Below are positions 28,780-52,048 of a stretch of 64,000 nt of DNA, in pieces. This DNA comes from an uncultured Bacilli bacterium (GTDB taxonomy: Bacteria; Bacillota_I; Bacilli_A; RF39; UBA660). Made by a program: the position numbers and the translations under genes. The DNA lies in contig OZ006970.1 of assembly GCA_963931065.1 (NCBI GenBank), positions 934,903 through 998,902 of the forward strand, in the 5' to 3' direction. Below the pieces are notes generated by a model, which saw only the letters and a list, made by a program, of their open reading frames with translations, was not told where the DNA came from and did no database searches. The stretch's first letter is position 1. Every line of letters begins with the position of its first letter.

Positions 28780-28866
28780 GCAGGAATGGTGGAATAGGTA
28801 GACACACTATCTTGAGGGGGTAGTGATTAATTAATCGTGCGAGTTCAAATCTCGTTTCCTGCACCA
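28780..28866 (+). tRNA. tRNA-Leu (anticodon GAG), type II with long variable arm, CCA encoded
   Basis: Acceptor GCAGGAA/TTCCTGC; 3-bp D stem GTG/CAC; anticodon stem CTATC/GGTAG with loop TTGAGGG; variable hairpin GATTAATTAATC; T-loop TTCAAAT; 3′ ACCA. Confidence 0.9.
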
Positions 28867-43807: not shown

Positions 43808-45004
43808 ATGAAAAAAATAGAATTACTGGCACCTGCAGGAGATTTAGAAAGACTTAAAGTAGTTTTGTTATATGGTGCTGATGCTGTTTATGTAGGAGGA
43901 GAAAAACTAAGTTTAAGAGCAAATGCTACTAATTTTAGTTTAGATGAATTAAAAGAGGGGTGTATTTTCGCTCATAATCTAAATAAACGAGTATATTTAA
44001 CCGCTAATATTGTCTTTCATGATAAAGATAGAGTTGGTATGGAAGATTATATTAAAAAAGTTATAGACTGTGGTATAGATGCTTTTATTGTTAGTGATTT
44101 ATATCTTGCTAAATACATAATTGATAACTATAAATCTGTAGAAGTTCATATCTCAACTCAAGACTCTATTACTAATATAAGCAGTGCTAAGTTTTATAGA
44201 GATTTAGGAGCAAGTAGAGTGGTACTTGCAAGAGAATTATCTCGTGAAGAAATAAAAGAAATATCAAGTATAACTAATTTAGAGACTGAAGTCTTTATTC
44301 ATGGAGCCATGTGTACTTGTTTTAGTGGTAGATGTGCTTTATCTAATTATGTTACTAATAGAGATGCTAATAGAGGTGGTTGTGCCCAAGTATGTCGTTT
44401 TGCCTTCGATTATGATAGTAATGATAAATTTACTCTTGCTACTAAAGATTTAAACATGGCAATCTTTATTAAAGACTTAATAGATATTGGAGTTAGTTCT
44501 CTAAAAGTAGAAGGAAGAATGAGAAGTTTATATTACCTTGCAACAGTTATTGGTAGTTATAGATTTTTAATAGATAGTATTTATGATGGAACCTTAACGT
44601 ATGATAAATTACTAGAGTATCAAAAACGCCTTGATTCTGTCGCTAATCGTGATACAACTAGTCAATACTTTAATCATTTAGCAGATGTAACTGATCAATA
44701 TTATACAGGTAGACAAGAAGTATCTAATCAAGAGTATTTAGGACTTATAATAGGTTATGATGAAGAGATGAAATCTATTATATTAAAAGAACGTAACTAC
44801 TTTAAAGTAGGTGATGAAGTAGAGATATTTACACCTAATGGAGAGATTTATCCTTATAAAATAGAAACTATCTATAACGAAGATAATGAGAAAATAGAAG
44901 TTGCACGACATCCAGAAGAAATACTAAAATTACCATTTGGTACAAGACTTATTCCTTATTCTATGATAAGATTAATAAAGAAAGGATATAGTTGTTATGT
45001 TTAG
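43808..45004 (+). CDS. Peptidase U32 family (collagenase PrtC-like)
   Basis: 'IELLAPAGDLERLKVVLLYGADAVYVGG' and the characteristic cysteine cluster CTCFSGRCALSNY. Confidence 0.85.
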   Translation: MKKIELLAPAGDLERLKVVLLYGADAVYVGGEKLSLRANATNFSLDELKEGCIFAHNLNKRVYLTANIVFHDKDRVGMEDYIKKVIDCGIDAFIVSDLYLAKYIIDNYKSVEVHISTQDSITNISSAKFYRDLGASRVVLARELSREEIKEISSITNLETEVFIHGAMCTCFSGRCALSNYVTNRDANRGGCAQVCRFAFDYDSNDKFTLATKDLNMAIFIKDLIDIGVSSLKVEGRMRSLYYLATVIGSYRFLIDSIYDGTLTYDKLLEYQKRLDSVANRDTTSQYFNHLADVTDQYYTGRQEVSNQEYLGLIIGYDEEMKSIILKERNYFKVGDEVEIFTPNGEIYPYKIETIYNEDNEKIEVARHPEEILKLPFGTRLIPYSMIRLIKKGYSCYV

Positions 45005-45401
45005 ATATTATAAAGTTCCAGTTTATGAGTTGCAGGAAGATTTAGTAAGTTATAATCAGTTGGATTATATTGTTGTAACACCATACCATCTATTTGCAAA
45101 AGAACTTTTAACAGGTTATTTTAGTATAGAGATTTTAACTAAAGAAATGGTAGGTGGTAATAAATTAAAATTAATTAGAGGAAATACTTTAGAGACTAAA
45201 AAACAAAATAGGGGTGTAGCATTATTTACATTCAAAGAAGAGTTTATTCCTAAGAATTTAGTAACAGAACAGTTTTTAGATTATTATGTAGATAATTTTG
45301 ATAATTCAAACTTTAATAATATCTATAAGAATATAGATAATAAGAAATTAAGAAATATTGGTTGTAAGATAAGAAATTTAAAAAATAGTAAAAGGAGTTA
45401 A
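44997..45401 (+). CDS. Hypothetical protein
   Basis: 134-aa ORF overlapping the upstream stop. Confidence 0.3.
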   Translation: MFRYYKVPVYELQEDLVSYNQLDYIVVTPYHLFAKELLTGYFSIEILTKEMVGGNKLKLIRGNTLETKKQNRGVALFTFKEEFIPKNLVTEQFLDYYVDNFDNSNFNNIYKNIDNKKLRNIGCKIRNLKNSKRS

Positions 45402-45411
45402 AGAAGTAGTT

Positions 45412-45780
45412 ATGGGTAGTAAAGAATATTATATGGTTCCAGTTTATGTTATGCTTGCAGAAGATTTTGTTTGTGGAGAGGTTGATTTTAAGTTTTTAGA
45501 TAAGATAATAGTATCTGAAACTAAAAATGGTTATCAAGAGCTAGATGGCTTTAATAATTTTGTTATATTGAGGTCAGAAAGAGATGATAATAAAAGGTTA
45601 AGGGTTGTTAATTATGATGAGTGTTTATATTTAAATAGTGATGATTTTACTGAAGAAAATAGGGTGTTAGTTGATGATAGTTTTGATAGAAATAATTATG
45701 TTAAAGATAATTTCGAAAATTATGTTAAGATGAGAAGAGGAAAAGTAAAAACTAAAAAGTACTATGTCGGGAAGAAGTGA
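45412..45780 (+). CDS. Hypothetical protein
   Basis: 122-aa ORF; 34% identity to the preceding ORF N-terminus pattern (YxVPVYxxxEDxV) suggests a tandem paralogue. Confidence 0.3.
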   Translation: MGSKEYYMVPVYVMLAEDFVCGEVDFKFLDKIIVSETKNGYQELDGFNNFVILRSERDDNKRLRVVNYDECLYLNSDDFTEENRVLVDDSFDRNNYVKDNFENYVKMRRGKVKTKKYYVGKK

Positions 45781-47737: not shown

Positions 47738-47828
47738 ATGTTCTCGCTCCCGGATGGTGCGAGTAATAAATTATTCCGGTCGACAATGTTTCTCGCTCCC
47801 GGATGGTGCGAGTAATAAATTATTCCGG
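47738..47828 (+). ncRNA. Second copy (2 units) of the 49-nt hairpin repeat family, orphan array
   Basis: AATGTTCTCGCTC-[CCGGA]-TGGTGCGAGTAATAAATTAT-[TCCGG]-TCGAC ×2; conserved loop and compensatory stem changes relative to locus 35784. Confidence 0.55.
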
Positions 47829-47841
47829 ACGAAAATATTTA

Positions 47842-47875: not shown

Positions 47876-47969
47876 AAAATATTGACTTTTATAGTTATTA
47901 AAATATAGTTACTACTTGTGAAAAGTAAAAATAAAACTTATAATGAATATAGAAAGAAGAGTGAATTTA

Positions 47970-48341
47970 ATGAAAATTTATGTATGTAAAAAATGTGGAA
48001 ATGTTATATTAAAATTAGAAGATAAAAGTGAAACTTTAGTATGTTGTGGCGATAAAATGGAACTTGTTGATGCTAATACTACTGAAGCTGCTACAGAAAA
48101 ACATTTACCAGTATATGAGATTAAAGATGGAATGATTAACATTAAAGTAGGAGAAGTAGAACATCCTATGATGGATGAACATTATATTTCTTTTATAATT
48201 CTTGCAAGTGATAATAATTATATGATTAAAAAATTAAAAGTAAAAGATAGGCCTGAAGTAAGTTTTCCTTATAGTAGTGAATATAATAAAATATATGCAT
48301 ATTGTAATTTACATAGTCTATGGCTTACAGAAATTAAATAA
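47970..48341 (+). CDS. dfx: Desulfoferrodoxin (superoxide reductase)
   Basis: N-terminal 'CKKCGN...CCGDKM' desulforedoxin site and C-terminal 'HPMMDEHYI' centre II. Confidence 0.8.
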   Translation: MKIYVCKKCGNVILKLEDKSETLVCCGDKMELVDANTTEAATEKHLPVYEIKDGMINIKVGEVEHPMMDEHYISFIILASDNNYMIKKLKVKDRPEVSFPYSSEYNKIYAYCNLHSLWLTEIK

Positions 48342-48343
48342 TT

Positions 48344-49138
48344 ATGAATATTTATCATGAATTAAATAAAGTAATAGATTATATAGAAGATAATTTAGAA
48401 AGCGATATAGATTATGAAAAAATTGCAAGGATTTTAGGGGTAAATATTTATACTGCTAAAAAACTCTTTAGTCTTCTTTGTAATAATACAATTTCTGAAT
48501 ATATTAGGAAAAGAAGATTATCTTTATCTTTTTATGATTTAACAGTAAAGAATGAAAAAGTAATAGATGTTGCCATTAAATATCATTATGAGAATCCTAC
48601 TTCTTTTTCAAGAGCTTTTTATAACTTTTATGGGGTTAAGCCCAAAAGAGCGAAAGATTTAAAGAAAGATATTAAAACTTTTCCTAAAATTGTTTTTAAA
48701 GAAGAATTAAATGATACTGAAGAATTAACTTATAATATTGTATCTTTAGATGAATTTACTTTATATGGTGTTGGAATAAAGACAACGAATGATACAATTA
48801 AAGATGATGCTCCTAATTTTTTTGATGAATGTGTAGAAAAATTTAAGAAACACCCTGATTATGGTATGATTACTTATGAAGATAGATATAATAGTGATAA
48901 TTATGAGTATTGGTGTCTATATAAAGAGAAATTATCTTTATTATCAAAATATGTTATTCCTAAGAGTAAATGGATTGTATTTATTATTAATTCTCAAAAA
49001 GCATCTGAAATTAGAAGAGTAAGTCAAAAATTTTATAAAACTATGTTTTTAAATTTACAATATAACATTAGACCACTACCAGAACTTGAGTATTATCATG
49101 ACAATATAACAGAGTTTTTAATACCGATAGAAGATTAA
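48344..49138 (+). CDS. AraC-family transcriptional regulator with GyrI-like effector domain
   Basis: AraC HTH ('IARILGVNIYTAKKLF...YENPTSFSRAF') plus a C-terminal GyrI-like fold. Confidence 0.8.
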   Translation: MNIYHELNKVIDYIEDNLESDIDYEKIARILGVNIYTAKKLFSLLCNNTISEYIRKRRLSLSFYDLTVKNEKVIDVAIKYHYENPTSFSRAFYNFYGVKPKRAKDLKKDIKTFPKIVFKEELNDTEELTYNIVSLDEFTLYGVGIKTTNDTIKDDAPNFFDECVEKFKKHPDYGMITYEDRYNSDNYEYWCLYKEKLSLLSKYVIPKSKWIVFIINSQKASEIRRVSQKFYKTMFLNLQYNIRPLPELEYYHDNITEFLIPIED

Positions 49139-49375
49139 TTCAAAAGTAATTTGTGAAAATTGCTCATTATTATTACTTTAATCTCTAAATAATAAAGAAA
49201 TTTAACTCCATATCTGGAATTAGACATTTAAGTAAACTTTTTAAGGTTATATTCTTTTAAGAATATCATCGTGAATAGTAAGATTTATTTCTCATAAAAA
49301 CTGACAAAATATGAAATATAAATGTCAGTTTTTTTCTTTAAGTTTATGTTAAACTTCACTAAAGGGGAGTTTAAT

Positions 49376-51214
49376 ATGGTAGTACAATCTATATATTTAA
49401 ATAAAGATAATGTTTCTAAAGAATCTTGGCTAAATTTAATAAATTATGTATGTAAATATAATGGCTATTTTAGAAATTTTAAAATAGTTGTAGAGATATT
49501 TAATAATAAAATAAAATATTATTTAGTTACTAAATATAAAGTTGCACCAACAATAAATTCTATAGATGATTTTTTAATAAAAGAAGAAGATATCAATATA
49601 GTAATAGATTATGAAAAAGCAAAACCTTTAGTTTTAGATATAGATAAAAATGCTGTAGAACTTTTTGATATTAGTAAATTAAAACATAATAGGGAACTAA
49701 GATATATTATTATTAATGTAACACCTTTATTTAATAAAAGATTATTTAAGACTTATATGTTCTTTAATAATAATAATAATTATATTAGAAGAAGATTTTT
49801 GATGGCTAGTCCTACTTATTTACTTAGTATTGATTTTAGTAATAATAAAAGATTTTCTTATGAAAAGAAAAATAAATATCTAAATTTAGAAAAAATATTA
49901 CCACTTTTAACAAATGATAATAAAGGAATATTTTGTGTAGATTCTTTTCCTTATTTAGGAAAAGAGATGTATTTAAATTATAAAGATTATGACTTTTTTA
50001 AACATTCTTTAATAATAGGAAGTAGTGGTAGTGGTAAATCTAAACTTATAAGCCTTTTAGTAAAGAATATAACACTAAATACTGATGATTATAAAGTTGT
50101 TATAATAGATCCCCATGCTTCAATAGAAAAAGATATAGGAGGTTTAAGTAAGACAAGAGTTATTGACTTTTTAAATGATAAAGTTGATTTATTTACATCA
50201 AATAGTACTAATATTGTAATAAAAAATGAATTAATGTTATCAGTATTTAAAAATTTAATGAAAGATGGGTATAATTTAAAACTAGAAAGAGTTTTACGCT
50301 ATACTATTTATTTATTATTAACTAAACAAGATTTTTCTTTTTCTAATATTAGAAAAGTTTTATTAGATTTAGAATATAGAAATAATTTAGTAAGAGAATT
50401 AACACCTTATTTAAATGATACAGTTATATCATTTTTCTTAACAGAATTTAATGATTTAAAGACTAATTATTATAATGAGAGTATTTCACCAATAATAAGT
50501 TTTATTGATGAAATGTTAGTATTTTCTACTTTTGATAAGTTTGATGAAAGTGTAATTGATGCAATTGATAAAAGTGATTTAACAATATTTTCATTAGATA
50601 GAAGTGCTTTAGGTGATAAGATTGTTAAAACTATCTCTTCTTTAGTAATGGAAGAAATATTAGAATCAGCGATAGAAGATAAATTAAATAAAAAATTACT
50701 TTTAGTTGTCGATGAAGTATCCTTACTTGAAAATCCTATTATGGAAAGACTTTTATCAGAATCTAGAAAGTTTGGTATTTCTCTAGTCCTTGCTGAACAG
50801 TATTTTGGACAAATTAGTAAAAAATTACAACAATCTATTTTCGCTAATGTTATAAATTATTATTCTTTTAGATTATCAAGAAGTGATGCTATTATTTTAA
50901 AAGATGTTTTAGAAGTTAAGTTTGCAAGAAATGTAGTTGATGATGATAAAATAAATTTATTTACAAACTTAAATAATAGAGAAGTAGTAGTAAGAGTTAG
51001 TAAAGATGAAAAAGTTTTACCAGTATTTAAAGCTAAGACTACTGACTTTGAAGCAGTCCCTTTACTTAGAGATAAAGTTAAGATATTTACTAAAATAAAA
51101 GATATATCAAATAATGTAAAGTTAAATTTATCTAATTATACAGATAAAAAATTAAAAGATATATTAGTAACTTTATCTAATAGTAGGAAAAGACATGGTG
51201 ATAAATATGAGTGA
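49376..51214 (+). CDS. HerA/FtsK-like P-loop ATPase (DUF87-type)
   Basis: Walker A 'GSSGSGKSK', Walker B 'LLVVDEVS'. ATG 49376 after AAAGGGGAG. Track start 49322 rejected because it lies inside the upstream terminator hairpin. Confidence 0.6.
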   Translation: MVVQSIYLNKDNVSKESWLNLINYVCKYNGYFRNFKIVVEIFNNKIKYYLVTKYKVAPTINSIDDFLIKEEDINIVIDYEKAKPLVLDIDKNAVELFDISKLKHNRELRYIIINVTPLFNKRLFKTYMFFNNNNNYIRRRFLMASPTYLLSIDFSNNKRFSYEKKNKYLNLEKILPLLTNDNKGIFCVDSFPYLGKEMYLNYKDYDFFKHSLIIGSSGSGKSKLISLLVKNITLNTDDYKVVIIDPHASIEKDIGGLSKTRVIDFLNDKVDLFTSNSTNIVIKNELMLSVFKNLMKDGYNLKLERVLRYTIYLLLTKQDFSFSNIRKVLLDLEYRNNLVRELTPYLNDTVISFFLTEFNDLKTNYYNESISPIISFIDEMLVFSTFDKFDESVIDAIDKSDLTIFSLDRSALGDKIVKTISSLVMEEILESAIEDKLNKKLLLVVDEVSLLENPIMERLLSESRKFGISLVLAEQYFGQISKKLQQSIFANVINYYSFRLSRSDAIILKDVLEVKFARNVVDDDKINLFTNLNNREVVVRVSKDEKVLPVFKAKTTDFEAVPLLRDKVKIFTKIKDISNNVKLNLSNYTDKKLKDILVTLSNSRKRHGDKYE

Positions 51215-51905
51215 TAAAGATGCTTTAATAATAATAGATAAGATTTTTAAGGCTGTGTTTTTAGTTAATAATACTAATACCTTAGAAGAAATCTTAAATA
51301 AGTATGCTTTTGATATAAAACTTCCTCGTAAAGTATATGATTATATAACTAACGAAGAAACTTATACAGATTTTGATAATGCTAAAGTTTTTATTACTAA
51401 AGATAATATGGAAAAGTTAGATAGTACAAAAGGTTTTATGTTAGAAAAAAAAGATTTTAAAAGTTTAGATGAAATTATAATGACATGGGAAAATATTAAT
51501 TCTATAACTACTAATAGATGTTATAACTCTACTTATGTATCTAAAAGTGATACTATTTATGACTCTAGTTATGTTTATAATTCTTCTAATTGTTCTAATT
51601 CAAAAAACATAGTGTTTTGTGATGGTTGCACTAAAAGTGAATACTTACTAGCATCACAAAGAAGTGGTAGTTGTACTTTTTCAATTAGAGTAGATGATTC
51701 TAGTAATTGTAGTAACTCTTATAGTGTTATTTGTTCTAATAAGATTAGTAATTCTATATTTATTCAAGATTGTTTTAATTTAGATGAGTGTATTTTTTGT
51801 TCTCATATTGCTAATAAAAAGTATTGTATTTGTAATATGCAATTTGAAAAAGATGAATATTTTACTATAAAAAACATAATAGTAAAGTGGATTGTTAATT
51901 CCTAG
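51207..51905 (+). CDS. Cys-rich hypothetical protein coupled to the HerA-like ATPase
   Basis: Repeated 'NCSNS' and CxxC-like clusters (CDGC, CIFCSH, CICN); 8-nt overlap with the ATPase gene. Confidence 0.4.
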   Translation: MSDKDALIIIDKIFKAVFLVNNTNTLEEILNKYAFDIKLPRKVYDYITNEETYTDFDNAKVFITKDNMEKLDSTKGFMLEKKDFKSLDEIIMTWENINSITTNRCYNSTYVSKSDTIYDSSYVYNSSNCSNSKNIVFCDGCTKSEYLLASQRSGSCTFSIRVDDSSNCSNSYSVICSNKISNSIFIQDCFNLDECIFCSHIANKKYCICNMQFEKDEYFTIKNIIVKWIVNS

Positions 51906-52048
51906 TATCAAACTATCATATTAAGCATATTATATTTAGAATACAAATTGTAAAAAAAGCTTGAATTTTTTAAAAAAATATGCTAAAATTTTACTCGTAT
52001 TATGGTTAGGGACTCCTAACCTATATTAATATTTTTGAGGTGATTATA

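What the first reader, a model, noticed from the sequence alone, without database searches (positions are those of the whole stretch)
49376..51905. HerA/FtsK-like ATPase translationally coupled to a small Cys-rich protein: possible uncharacterised two-gene system
A 612-aa P-loop ATPase of the DUF87/HerA-FtsK type (GSSGSGKSK and LLVVDEVS) has an approximately 230-aa N-terminal domain. It overlaps by 8 nt a 232-aa protein rich in NCSNS and CxxC-like motifs. The pair lies downstream of an AraC/GyrI regulator in otherwise housekeeping context.

HerA-like ATPases paired with small effector or nuclease partners recur in anti-phage systems and in DNA-translocation modules. This partner has no motif I can place.
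Basis: inference. Interest (0 to 1): 0.55.

Follow-up and report, generated by a model that had tools for sequence, protein, structure and literature searches.

The report
Regulated HerA-type ATPase with unknown partner
A ring-motor ATPase gene and a tightly coupled gene for a protein of an undescribed family, built on a serine/cysteine repeat, form a regulated module that is conserved in small-genome gut bacteria and in DPANN archaea, and its function is unknown.

Summary
ORF 49376-51214 encodes a soluble 612-aa FtsK/HerA-superfamily ATPase with intact catalytic motifs. It overlaps by 8 nt ORF 51207-51905, a 232-aa Ser/Cys-rich protein with no match in Pfam, NCBIfam, PADLOC, PHROGs or PDB.

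The pair is a real, conserved module. The ATPase lies directly upstream of the partner in 71 of 71 related gut-Bacilli loci, usually with a 1-8 nt overlap. The same pairing recurs in other bacteria and in archaea. In Candidatus Micrarchaeota the partner family forms tandem arrays of up to nine or more divergent two-copy paralogues beside the ATPase.

The partner has a confident N-terminal alpha/beta domain, about 17 hexapeptide repeats with a Ser/Cys ladder, and a C-terminal helix. Most cysteines are not conserved across the family.

The upstream MarA/Rob-like AraC-GyrI regulator belongs to the module. A previously unnoticed 28-bp palindrome (49301-49328) sits about 75 nt before the ATPase start in 64 of 72 loci and is missing where the regulator is missing.

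No T4SS, phage, plasmid or defence-island context was found. I read it as a stress-inducible ATPase-partner machine. A defence role is not excluded.

The parts
48344..49138 (+). AraC-family regulator. The N-terminal double HTH is of the MarA/SoxS/Rob type and the C-terminal domain is a Cass2/GyrI-like ligand-binding domain. It follows the superoxide reductase gene (47943-48341) with a 2-nt gap.
   Evidence: Pfam HTH_18 scores 46.3 bits (cut-off 33.6) and Cass2 37.8 bits (cut-off 27). The best PDB matches are MarA, RamA, SoxS and Rob, with E from 4e-12 to 3e-7. It is present upstream of the ATPase in 50 of 52 related loci that have 6 kb of upstream sequence.
49301..49328 (+). Conserved 28-bp palindrome CTGACA-N16-TGTCAG. 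The wider consensus is AAACTGACAAAA...AAAAGTCAG followed by a T-run, at 49298-49339 in this window. It is a candidate operator and may also act as a terminator or insulator hairpin.
   Evidence: It is unique in the 64-kb window and absent from 100 shuffles. It lies 70-89 nt before the ATPase start in 64 of 72 loci from both clades, against 0.008 expected per 250 nt. Copies also sit 69-80 nt before genes inserted between the regulator and the ATPase. It is absent or degenerate in the three loci that lack the regulator. The RNA fold energy is -10.3 kcal/mol. No Rfam family matches.
49345..49355 (+). Putative extended -10 promoter element, TATGT-TAAACT.
   Evidence: The motif-anchored alignment of 70 sites gives the consensus TnTGnTAtAnT about 22 nt after the palindrome. 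The 85 nt before the start codon are nearly identical across species whose ATPases are only 77-88% identical. This is an inference with no transcript data behind it.
49363..49369 (+). Ribosome-binding site AGGGGAG of the ATPase gene.
   Evidence: Read from the sequence and conserved in relatives.
49376..51214 (+). Soluble 612-aa FtsK/HerA-superfamily P-loop ATPase. It has an N-terminal domain of about 200 residues, a helical insert between the Walker A and B motifs, and a clade-specific C-terminal tail at residues 558-612.
   Evidence: Pfam DUF87 scores 35.2 bits (cut-off 23.2) and TrwB_AAD_bind 36.6 bits (cut-off 20.5). Invariant residues in alignment A4 are Walker A G215-S222, D245-P246-H247, Walker B D446-E447, E462/R464/K465, Q475, Q479, N491, N494 and R540. 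There is no membrane segment; the maximum 19-residue hydropathy is 1.07. It shares 29% identity over 450 aa, E 5e-52, with the Micrarchaeota ATPase.
51207..51905 (+). 232-aa partner protein of an undescribed family. It has an N-terminal alpha/beta domain (residues 1-100), about 17 hexapeptide repeats with a Ser/Cys ladder (residues 108-207), and a C-terminal helix (residues 215-231) preceded by the conserved motif FC-x8-CI-x-N-x-Q.
   Evidence: No hit in Pfam, PADLOC, NCBIfam, PHROGs or PDB. It has 790 homologues, is found in 364 species genomes, and falls into 787 clusters at 50% identity. The AF2 model has pLDDT 77 and pTM 0.77. Ser/Cys autocorrelation is 0.57, 0.63 and 0.53 at lags 6, 12 and 18. 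Foldseek against PDB and BFVD found no match with E below 1.

Best explanation
This is a chromosomal, regulator-controlled module with three parts.

Shown:
1. A MarA/Rob-type AraC regulator with a GyrI/Cass2 ligand-binding domain.
2. A conserved 28-bp palindrome at a fixed distance from what looks like an extended -10 promoter.
3. A translationally coupled two-gene operon. The first gene encodes a soluble HerA-clade ATPase with all catalytic motifs intact. The second encodes a protein of an undescribed family: a globular N-terminal domain, a Ser/Cys-ladder hexapeptide-repeat region, and a C-terminal helix.

The ATPase-partner pairing is kept across bacteria and archaea.

Inferred:
- The two proteins are made in matched amounts and form one complex. 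The ATPase would assemble as a ring motor, as its relatives do. The repeat protein would be its dedicated adaptor or substrate, docking on the family-specific N-terminal domain as NurA, Sir2 and DUF4297 dock on HerA.
- The regulator binds the palindrome and switches the operon on when it senses a small molecule.
- In several species the same operator drives nitroreductase, GNAT acetyltransferase and transglutaminase-like genes. The module therefore most likely belongs to a xenobiotic or redox stress response and deals with damaged DNA or protein rather than with phage.

What the motor threads (DNA, as in most relatives, or the rod-like partner itself) is not known.
For: Linkage of the pair:
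- The ATPase lies directly upstream of the partner in 71 of 71 Bacilli loci.
- The junction is an 8-nt overlap in 29 loci, 4 nt in 17, 1 nt in 7, and a gap of 0-7 nt in 22.
- The downstream flank differs in almost every species of the distant clade, yet the module stays together.
- The same pair occurs in L095, L099, L100, L101 and L102, and beside the paralogue arrays in L089 and L091.

Active ATPase: the catalytic residues are invariant across the bacterial and archaeal members.

Regulation:
- The regulator is present in 50 of 52 loci.
- The palindrome is present in 64 of 72 loci at a fixed position, with duplicates in front of inserted genes.
- It is lost together with the regulator in 3 of 3 loci.
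- The regulator's DNA-binding domain is closest to MarA, RamA, SoxS and Rob.

Stress theme:
- Nitroreductase and GNAT genes sit under the same operator.
- Superoxide reductase is immediately upstream and same-strand with the regulator here, 2 nt apart.
- Flavodoxin lies directly upstream of the pair in L095.
- A Rieske protein and a class II fumarase lie directly downstream in L101.

Not mobile: no relatives of the partner were found in IMG/VR, PLSDB or GenBank phages, and the flanks here are housekeeping genes.

Precedent: HerA-partner complexes are described in PMC11291478, PMC11514289 and PMC11472057.
Against: - No physical or expression data exist. Complex formation, binding of the regulator to the palindrome, and induction are all inferences.
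- MarA, SoxS and Rob bind asymmetric sites as monomers (my own knowledge), so a 28-bp palindrome is not what that subfamily would predict.
- The palindrome plus T-run could act mainly as a terminator.
- The redox and xenobiotic theme rests on a handful of neighbours.
- The partner has no recognisable catalytic or DNA-binding motif. The repeat region is modelled at low confidence (pLDDT 52-60 for residues 141-210).
- Some family members lie without an ATPase within 7-10 kb (L093, L097/L098, L103).
- The archaeal paralogue arrays are not explained by a simple stress-repair role.
Confidence: 0.4

Rival explanations
1. An anti-phage or conflict system of the HerA-plus-effector type. The ATPase ring would sense foreign DNA and activate the partner as a new kind of effector, or the partner would sense a phage protein.
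For: - All 18 ATPases tested hit the PADLOC HerA and mad8 models (E 1e-7 to 5e-19).
- The nearest solved structures are HerA subunits of the defence complexes 8xau and 8wiv.
- The layout is a two-gene, translationally coupled operon with its own regulator.
- The distribution is scattered across distant phyla and both domains.
- Micrarchaeota carry tandem arrays of paralogues only 30-45% identical to each other, a pattern seen in diversifying conflict systems.
Against: - The partner matches nothing in PADLOC and carries no nuclease, NADase, protease or membrane domain.
- The partner is more conserved than the ATPase between clades (57-65% against 38-47% identity), the opposite of fast-evolving effectors.
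- Each gene is single-copy in this window, the module is found in 364 species genomes, and its position is stable within the genus.
- The flanks are housekeeping genes with no neighbouring defence genes.
- The family is absent from phage, viral-contig and plasmid collections.
- The operator is shared with detoxification-type genes.
Confidence: 0.25
2. A structural or cytoskeletal assembly system. The repeat protein would polymerise or oligomerise into rods or fibres, possibly as an intertwined multimer. The ATPase would be its assembly, disassembly or threading motor. The archaeal operons of many paralogues would encode subunits of one large hetero-oligomer.
For: - The strict period-6/12 Ser/Cys ladder over about 100 residues suggests a narrow beta-solenoid.
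- AF2 models the conserved repeat region poorly as a monomer while the N-terminal domain is confident, as expected for an obligate oligomer.
- Archaea carry two-copy fusions and overlapping, co-oriented paralogue genes.
- The partner is conserved more strongly than the ATPase.
Against: - No fold match supports a solenoid or fibre; the best Foldseek E-value is 1.2-2.5.
- No multimer prediction was possible.
- Known beta-helical cytoskeletal proteins such as bactofilins need no ATPase (my own knowledge).
- A dedicated small-molecule-sensing regulator is unusual for a structural protein.
Confidence: 0.2
3. A remnant or minimal form of a conjugative DNA-transfer apparatus, either a coupling protein of the TrwB/VirD4/TraD type or a Streptomyces TraB-like DNA translocase, with an accessory protein.
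For: Weak Pfam and NCBIfam similarity to TrwB_AAD_bind, TraG-D_C and TraD. The best plasmid match is a 'type IV secretion system DNA-binding domain-containing protein' at 21% identity. In L099 a second ATPase of the DUF87/TrwB/TraG-D_C type follows the pair.
Against: - There is no membrane anchor.
- No relaxase, VirB4, pilin or other T4SS gene lies within at least 8 kb.
- Scores are far below the family cut-offs: TraD 25.5 against 521, TraG-Ti 16.6 against 686.
- Only two distant hits were found among 72,556 plasmids, and the partner has none.
- The gene is inherited stably in the chromosome within the genus.
Confidence: 0.04
4. Two unrelated genes that are adjacent by chance, or a partner ORF that does not encode a protein.
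For: None beyond the lack of any annotation.
Against: Adjacency holds in 71 of 71 loci. The pairing recurs across both domains. The partner is 57-92% identical across 80 species loci, full length and with a conserved start.
Confidence: 0.01

Closest known systems
HerA-partner two-gene modules: HerA-NurA (DNA end resection), and the defence systems Sir2-HerA and HerA-DUF4297 (PMC11514289, PMC11472057, PMC11291478)
   Same: The ATPase belongs to the FtsK/HerA superfamily and carries Walker A, a DPH motif, Walker B and a candidate arginine finger (R464). It has an N-terminal domain before the P-loop. A smaller partner gene is tightly linked. A stoichiometric ring-plus-partner complex is therefore expected.
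   Different: - The partner is unrelated to NurA, Sir2 or DUF4297 and has no enzymatic motif.
- ATPase similarity to solved HerA proteins is confined to the Walker A region (E about 1e-6).
- The module sits among housekeeping genes under a small-molecule-sensing regulator.
- The partner family forms large paralogue arrays in archaea.
Type IV coupling proteins (TrwB, VirD4, TraD, TraG)
   Same: A P-loop domain with a helical insert between the Walker A and B motifs. The Pfam TrwB_AAD_bind hit is above its cut-off.
   Different: There is no N-terminal membrane anchor and no T4SS or relaxase context. Equivalog models score far below their cut-offs.
mar/sox/rob-type regulons (MarA, SoxS, Rob; Rob carries a GyrI-like domain)
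   Same: The regulator's DNA-binding domain is closest to MarA, RamA, SoxS and Rob, and it has a GyrI/Cass2-like C-terminal domain as Rob does. Nitroreductase genes are recruited to the same operator. In E. coli, nitroreductases, flavodoxins, fumarase C and superoxide-removing enzymes belong to this regulon (my own knowledge).
   Different: The conserved site is a 28-bp palindrome rather than an asymmetric 20-bp marbox. The main target is an ATPase-partner operon with no counterpart in the E. coli regulon. Binding has not been tested.
Beta-solenoid repeat proteins: hexapeptide left-handed beta-helix, the 12-residue-coil insect antifreeze protein, and the pentapeptide-repeat DNA mimics Qnr and MfpA
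   Same: A strict short-period repeat with a small residue (Ser or Cys) at a fixed position and a 12-residue super-period. Left-handed beta-helix acetyltransferases appear among the non-significant Foldseek hits. MfpA is a precedent for a solenoid that works with an NTPase (my own knowledge).
   Different: There is no Pfam Hexapep, pentapeptide or AFP hit at E <= 1. The spacing from Ser to the hydrophobic residue is 3-4, not the canonical 2 of hexapeptide repeats. No significant structural match was found. The fold of residues 141-210 is not established.

Membership tests
FtsK/HerA superfamily of P-loop ATPases | Walker A and Walker B motifs, a conserved arginine and sensor residues, and Pfam DUF87/FtsK-type domain hits above the cut-off | tested here: met
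   DUF87 scores 35.2 bits (cut-off 23.2) and TrwB_AAD_bind 36.6 bits (cut-off 20.5). G215-S222, D446-E447, R464 and Q475/Q479 are invariant in 18 bacterial and archaeal members.
FtsK/HerA superfamily of P-loop ATPases | Hexameric ring with a central pore | not testable with these tools
HerA sensu stricto (HerA-NurA) and anti-phage HerA (Sir2-HerA, HerA-DUF4297) | Full-length match to HerA models | tested here: not met
   NCBIfam HerA_antiphage scores 26.4 bits against a cut-off of 800. The PDB profile search matches HerA chains only around Walker A, E about 1e-6.
HerA sensu stricto (HerA-NurA) and anti-phage HerA (Sir2-HerA, HerA-DUF4297) | Adjacent NurA, Sir2 or DUF4297 partner gene | tested here: not met
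   The partner has no hit in Pfam, PADLOC or NCBIfam at E <= 1, apart from one irrelevant NCBIfam match at E 0.097.
Type IV coupling protein (VirD4/TrwB/TraD/TraG) | N-terminal transmembrane anchor | tested here: not met
   The maximum 19-residue hydropathy is 1.07, so there is no membrane segment.
Type IV coupling protein (VirD4/TrwB/TraD/TraG) | Relaxase and T4SS genes in the neighbourhood, or carriage on a conjugative element | tested here: not met
   The neighbours are housekeeping genes. Only two distant plasmid hits at 21-23% identity were found.
MADS defence system (mad8) | Eight-gene mad operon (10.1101/2023.03.30.534895) | tested here: not met
   mad8 is the best PADLOC hit (E 2.8e-16), but none of the other seven mad genes is present and the neighbours are housekeeping genes.
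Hexapeptide-repeat left-handed beta-helix (Pfam Hexapep) | Match to the hexapeptide profile, or a significant structural match to a left-handed beta-helix | tested here: not met
   There is no Pfam hit at E <= 1. Left-handed beta-helix enzymes appear only at Foldseek E 3.4-9 and probability 0.01. A period-6 pattern is nevertheless present.
AraC/XylS regulators of the MarA/SoxS/Rob type with a GyrI-like domain | Double HTH (HTH_18) plus a GyrI/Cass2 effector-binding domain | tested here: met
   HTH_18 scores 46.3 bits and Cass2 37.8 bits, both above their cut-offs. The best PDB matches are MarA, RamA, SoxS and Rob.
AraC/XylS regulators of the MarA/SoxS/Rob type with a GyrI-like domain | Binds an operator upstream of the regulated promoter | tested here: inconclusive
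   A conserved palindrome co-varies with the presence of the regulator. Binding itself was not tested, and the site is not marbox-like.

The most novel reading that the evidence does not exclude
The partner defines a new class of narrow Ser/Cys-ladder beta-solenoid proteins, and a HerA-type ring ATPase assembles, threads or remodels them. This would be a protein-handling rather than DNA-handling use of the HerA motor. The machine would be shared by small-genome bacteria (gut RFN20-type Bacilli) and DPANN archaea (Micrarchaeota), with partner-family members also in CPR bacteria. In Micrarchaeota it would have expanded into operons of nine or more divergent two-copy subunits that build a large hetero-oligomeric structure.
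Probability: 0.15. Interest if true: 0.85.

Novelty: new variant of a known kind. Interest (0 to 1): 0.6.

Why it matters
HerA-type ATPases paired with small partners are known from DNA repair and from several recently solved anti-phage complexes. In every known case the partner is an enzyme.

Here the partner is a strongly conserved protein with no apparent enzymatic motif, belonging to a family that no library names. It falls into 787 clusters at 50% identity, spans bacteria and archaea, and is massively duplicated in DPANN archaea.

The ATPase-partner pair occurs in several lineages with small genomes, where little non-essential DNA is kept. That argues for an important cellular role.

The Bacilli version comes with a ready handle for experiments: a ligand-sensing regulator and a sharply defined operator. 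Working out what this motor-plus-rod does would add a new function to a well-studied ATPase superfamily and annotate thousands of hypothetical proteins.

Tried and rejected
- **Alternative genetic code.** Some RFN20 Bacilli read AGG as Met or CGG as Trp (PMC8629427). Here AGG is rare (38 per 10,000 codons), AGA dominates and ATG is normal. The ATPase gene has two AGG codons, the partner gene none, and neither has a CGG codon. Table 11 translations stand.
- **T4SS or conjugation.** Rejected; see the membership tests.
- **MADS.** The mad8 hit is generic P-loop similarity, and the rest of the operon is absent.
- **Metal-cluster protein.** The wide alignment shows that most Cys exchange with Ser. 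Only C198 and C207 are (nearly) invariant. A small C-terminal metal site is still possible.
- **Known RNA element in the leader.** No Rfam match at E <= 1.
- **Carriage on phages, plasmids or viral contigs.** No relative of the partner was found. The ATPase has no phage match.
- **First AF2 model.** Built from a shallow alignment of 27 sequences, it was poor (pLDDT 56). A 57-sequence alignment gave pLDDT 77.
- **Literature.** Searches for the family in DPANN, HerA or beta-helix contexts found no description.
- **Organisms of L095 and L099-L101.** A cluster look-up returned no names.
Full report
**1. The observation**

The two ORFs are as described.

- The ATPase gene runs from 49376 to 51214. 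An AGGGGAG ribosome-binding site lies 7 nt before the ATG. Gene calls on identical metagenomic contigs also give 612 aa.
- The partner gene runs from 51207 to 51905 and overlaps the ATPase stop codon by 8 nt. An upstream in-frame ATG at 51195 would add four residues. Homologues are almost all about 232 aa and align from the Met at 51207.
- The upstream gene, 48344-49138, is an AraC (HTH_18) regulator with a Cass2/GyrI-like domain.
- The window is about 25% G+C. The GreA protein encoded here falls in a 90%-identity cluster with Candidatus Onthousia, an uncultured gut member of the Bacilli.
- The standard genetic code applies.

**2. The ATPase**

- Pfam places residues 206-500 in DUF87 (the HerA central domain) and TrwB_AAD_bind, both above their cut-offs.
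- NCBIfam equivalogs for anti-phage HerA, TraD, TraG and EccC score far below their cut-offs.
- The best PADLOC hits are mad8 and several HerA models.
- An alignment of 18 members from Bacilli, other bacteria and an archaeon shows invariant Walker A (G215-S222), a HerA-like D245-P246-H247, Walker B (D446-E447), E462/R464/K465, Q475, Q479, N491, N494 and R540. The enzyme is therefore expected to be active.
- It has no membrane segment.
- The nearest solved structures are HerA subunits of defence complexes, matched only around Walker A.
- About 200 residues precede the P-loop. They match nothing, but they are partly conserved into archaea: the BLASTP alignment starts at residue 122.

**3. The partner**

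- It has no hit in Pfam, PADLOC, NCBIfam, PHROGs or PDB sequences, either as a single sequence or as a profile.
- It is nevertheless strongly conserved. It has 790 homologues at the 90% cluster level, relatives in 364 of 185,579 species-representative genomes, and 787 clusters at 50% identity.
- Within the gut Bacilli it is more conserved than the ATPase or the regulator: 57-65% identity, against 38-47% and 43-53%.
- In the wide alignment most cysteines exchange with serine. Only C207 and N210 are invariant or nearly so, along with S114, R161, F197, C198, I208 and Y218.
- Ser or Cys occupies every sixth position from residue 108 to 207. Autocorrelation is 0.57, 0.63 and 0.53 at lags 6, 12 and 18. 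Hydrophobic positions repeat every 12 residues (0.45).
- AF2 with 57 sequences gives pLDDT 77 and pTM 0.77. The N-terminal alpha/beta domain is confident (pLDDT 85-96) and beta strands are modelled to about residue 136. Residues 141-210 are modelled poorly, and there is a C-terminal helix.
- Foldseek against PDB and BFVD finds nothing significant.
- I read the repeat region as a narrow beta-solenoid. This is an inference from periodicity, not an established fold.

**4. The pairing is real and old**

- In 80 genome loci and 8 metagenome loci of gut Bacilli, every locus with at least 2 kb upstream of the partner has the ATPase directly upstream (71 of 71).
- The junction is an 8-nt overlap in 29 loci, 4 nt in 17, 1 nt in 7, and a gap of 0-7 nt in 22.
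- The downstream flank is conserved only in the close, genus-level clade (GreA). It differs in almost every species of the distant clade.
- The same order, ATPase then partner, occurs in several other organisms:
  - an unrelated bacterium with a 1.2-Mb contig (L095, preceded by flavodoxin);
  - L099, where a second DUF87/TrwB/TraG-D_C ATPase follows the pair;
  - L100;
  - an archaeon, L101, where the cut-off upstream ORF is the ATPase C-terminus (E 3.7e-89);
  - a Micrarchaeota-related archaeon, L102.
- In Candidatus Micrarchaeota the partner family occurs as two-copy proteins of about 525 aa.
- These form tandem, overlapping arrays. L089 has nine or more in a row, 30-45% identical to each other. 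L091 has four one-copy and four two-copy genes plus an HTH_10 regulator.
- Each array lies beside an ATPase. The L091 ATPase is 29% identical to the window's over 450 residues, E 5e-52.
- Some family members lie without an ATPase within 7-10 kb. These are L093, L103 and Candidatus Dojkabacteria L097/L098.

**5. The regulator and a conserved operator**

- The regulator is found within 6 kb upstream in 50 of 52 loci.
- A 28-bp palindrome, CTGACA-N16-TGTCAG, lies at 49301-49328. It is unique in the window and absent from 100 shuffles.
- Allowing up to two mismatches, it occurs 70-89 nt before the ATPase start in 64 of 72 loci. These span both clades, with ATPase identity from 38% to 88%. The background rate is 0.008 per 250 nt.
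- The anchored consensus is AAACTGACAAAAyTGaTT...AAAAGTCAGTTTTTT. It is followed about 22 nt later by TnTGnTAtAnT (an extended -10) and then the ribosome-binding site.
- Within the genus the 85 nt before the start codon are nearly invariant, although the proteins are only 77-88% identical.
- In some species other genes are inserted between the regulator and the ATPase. These include nitroreductase, two GNAT acetyltransferases and a transglutaminase-like protein. In five of these loci (L041, L045, L059, L065, L066) a copy of the palindrome sits 69-80 nt before the first inserted gene.
- The three loci that lack the regulator also lack the palindrome or keep only a degenerate trace of it.
- In the distant clade the inner bases of the site cannot pair, so it is the sequence and not a hairpin that is conserved. 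This points to a protein-binding site.
- The regulator's DNA-binding domain is closest to MarA, RamA, SoxS and Rob.
- Binding of this regulator to this site is an inference.

**6. Interpretation**

- The conflict-system reading is not excluded. It rests on HerA-type similarity, a two-gene operon, scattered phyletic distribution and the archaeal paralogue arrays.
- Several findings argue against a classical defence island:
  - the housekeeping context;
  - a single copy of each gene in this window, and a stable position within the genus;
  - a partner conserved more strongly than the ATPase;
  - no recognisable effector domain;
  - absence from phage, viral-contig and plasmid collections;
  - an operator shared with detoxification-type genes.
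- A weak redox or xenobiotic theme recurs in the neighbourhoods:
  - superoxide reductase directly upstream of the regulator here, 2 nt apart;
  - nitroreductase under the operator;
  - flavodoxin in L095;
  - a Rieske protein and a class II fumarase in L101.
- From my own knowledge, these gene classes overlap with the E. coli mar/sox/rob regulon.
- I therefore favour a stress-inducible ATPase-partner machine (confidence 0.4).
- The defence reading (0.25) and the structural-assembly reading (0.2) remain open.
- The conjugation-remnant reading is close to refuted.

**7. Novelty**

I found no description of the partner family or of this pairing in the protein-family libraries or in the literature searched. 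The kind of system, a HerA-family ATPase with a dedicated partner, is known. The partner family, its repeat architecture, the archaeal arrays and the Bacilli operator appear to be new.

Noticed in passing
window 47741-47838: Two tandem copies of a 49-nt G+C-rich unit (TTCTCGCTCCCGGATGGTGCGAG...) lie in the FolD-to-superoxide-reductase intergenic region of a genome with about 25% G+C. Each copy can form a CTCGC/GCGAG hairpin. The unit occurs nowhere else in the window. The fold z-score is only -2.0.
   Followed up: partly
window 47943-48341 and 48344-49138: The desulfoferrodoxin-type superoxide reductase gene ends 2 nt before the AraC-GyrI regulator gene, so the two are probably co-transcribed. 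The adjacency is kept in the genus-level clade only.
   Followed up: partly
window 44997-45401 and 45412-45780: Two adjacent small ORFs of 134 and 122 aa have similar N-termini (YYKVPVYEL... and YYMVPVYVM...) and no Pfam family on record. They lie between the U32 peptidase and HD dGTPase genes and look like a local duplication of an unknown gene.
   Followed up: no
whole window (codon counts): CGG is almost unused: 2 of 18,595 codons in long ORFs. One clade of the same order (RFN20) is reported to read CGG as Trp (PMC8629427). No tRNA evidence is available in this window, where the only tRNA is Leu-GAG at 28780-28866.
   Followed up: partly
L089 1-13555; L091 2380-12503: Candidatus Micrarchaeota contigs carry operon-like arrays of the partner family beside a DUF87 ATPase. 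L089 has nine or more two-copy paralogues, and L091 has four one-copy and four two-copy paralogues. In L091 an HTH_10 regulator lies inside the array, and T2SSE/T2SSF pilus-type genes and a HicA toxin lie upstream.
   Followed up: partly
L014 2579-3727; L007 385-1626: Mobile elements have landed next to the module in relatives. An IS605 OrfB/TnpB-type gene sits between the regulator and the ATPase in L014. A reverse transcriptase (RVT_1) gene lies upstream in L007.
   Followed up: no
L033 1366-4077: In one species a radical-SAM/NUDIX fusion, a methyltransferase and a nicotinamide mononucleotide transporter lie between the regulator and the ATPase. The palindrome there is directly upstream of the ATPase.
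   Followed up: no
window 52005-52022: A short G+C-rich hairpin (GGTTAGGGACTCCTAACC) lies in the GreA leader, just downstream of a promoter-like site at 51961-51989.
   Followed up: no
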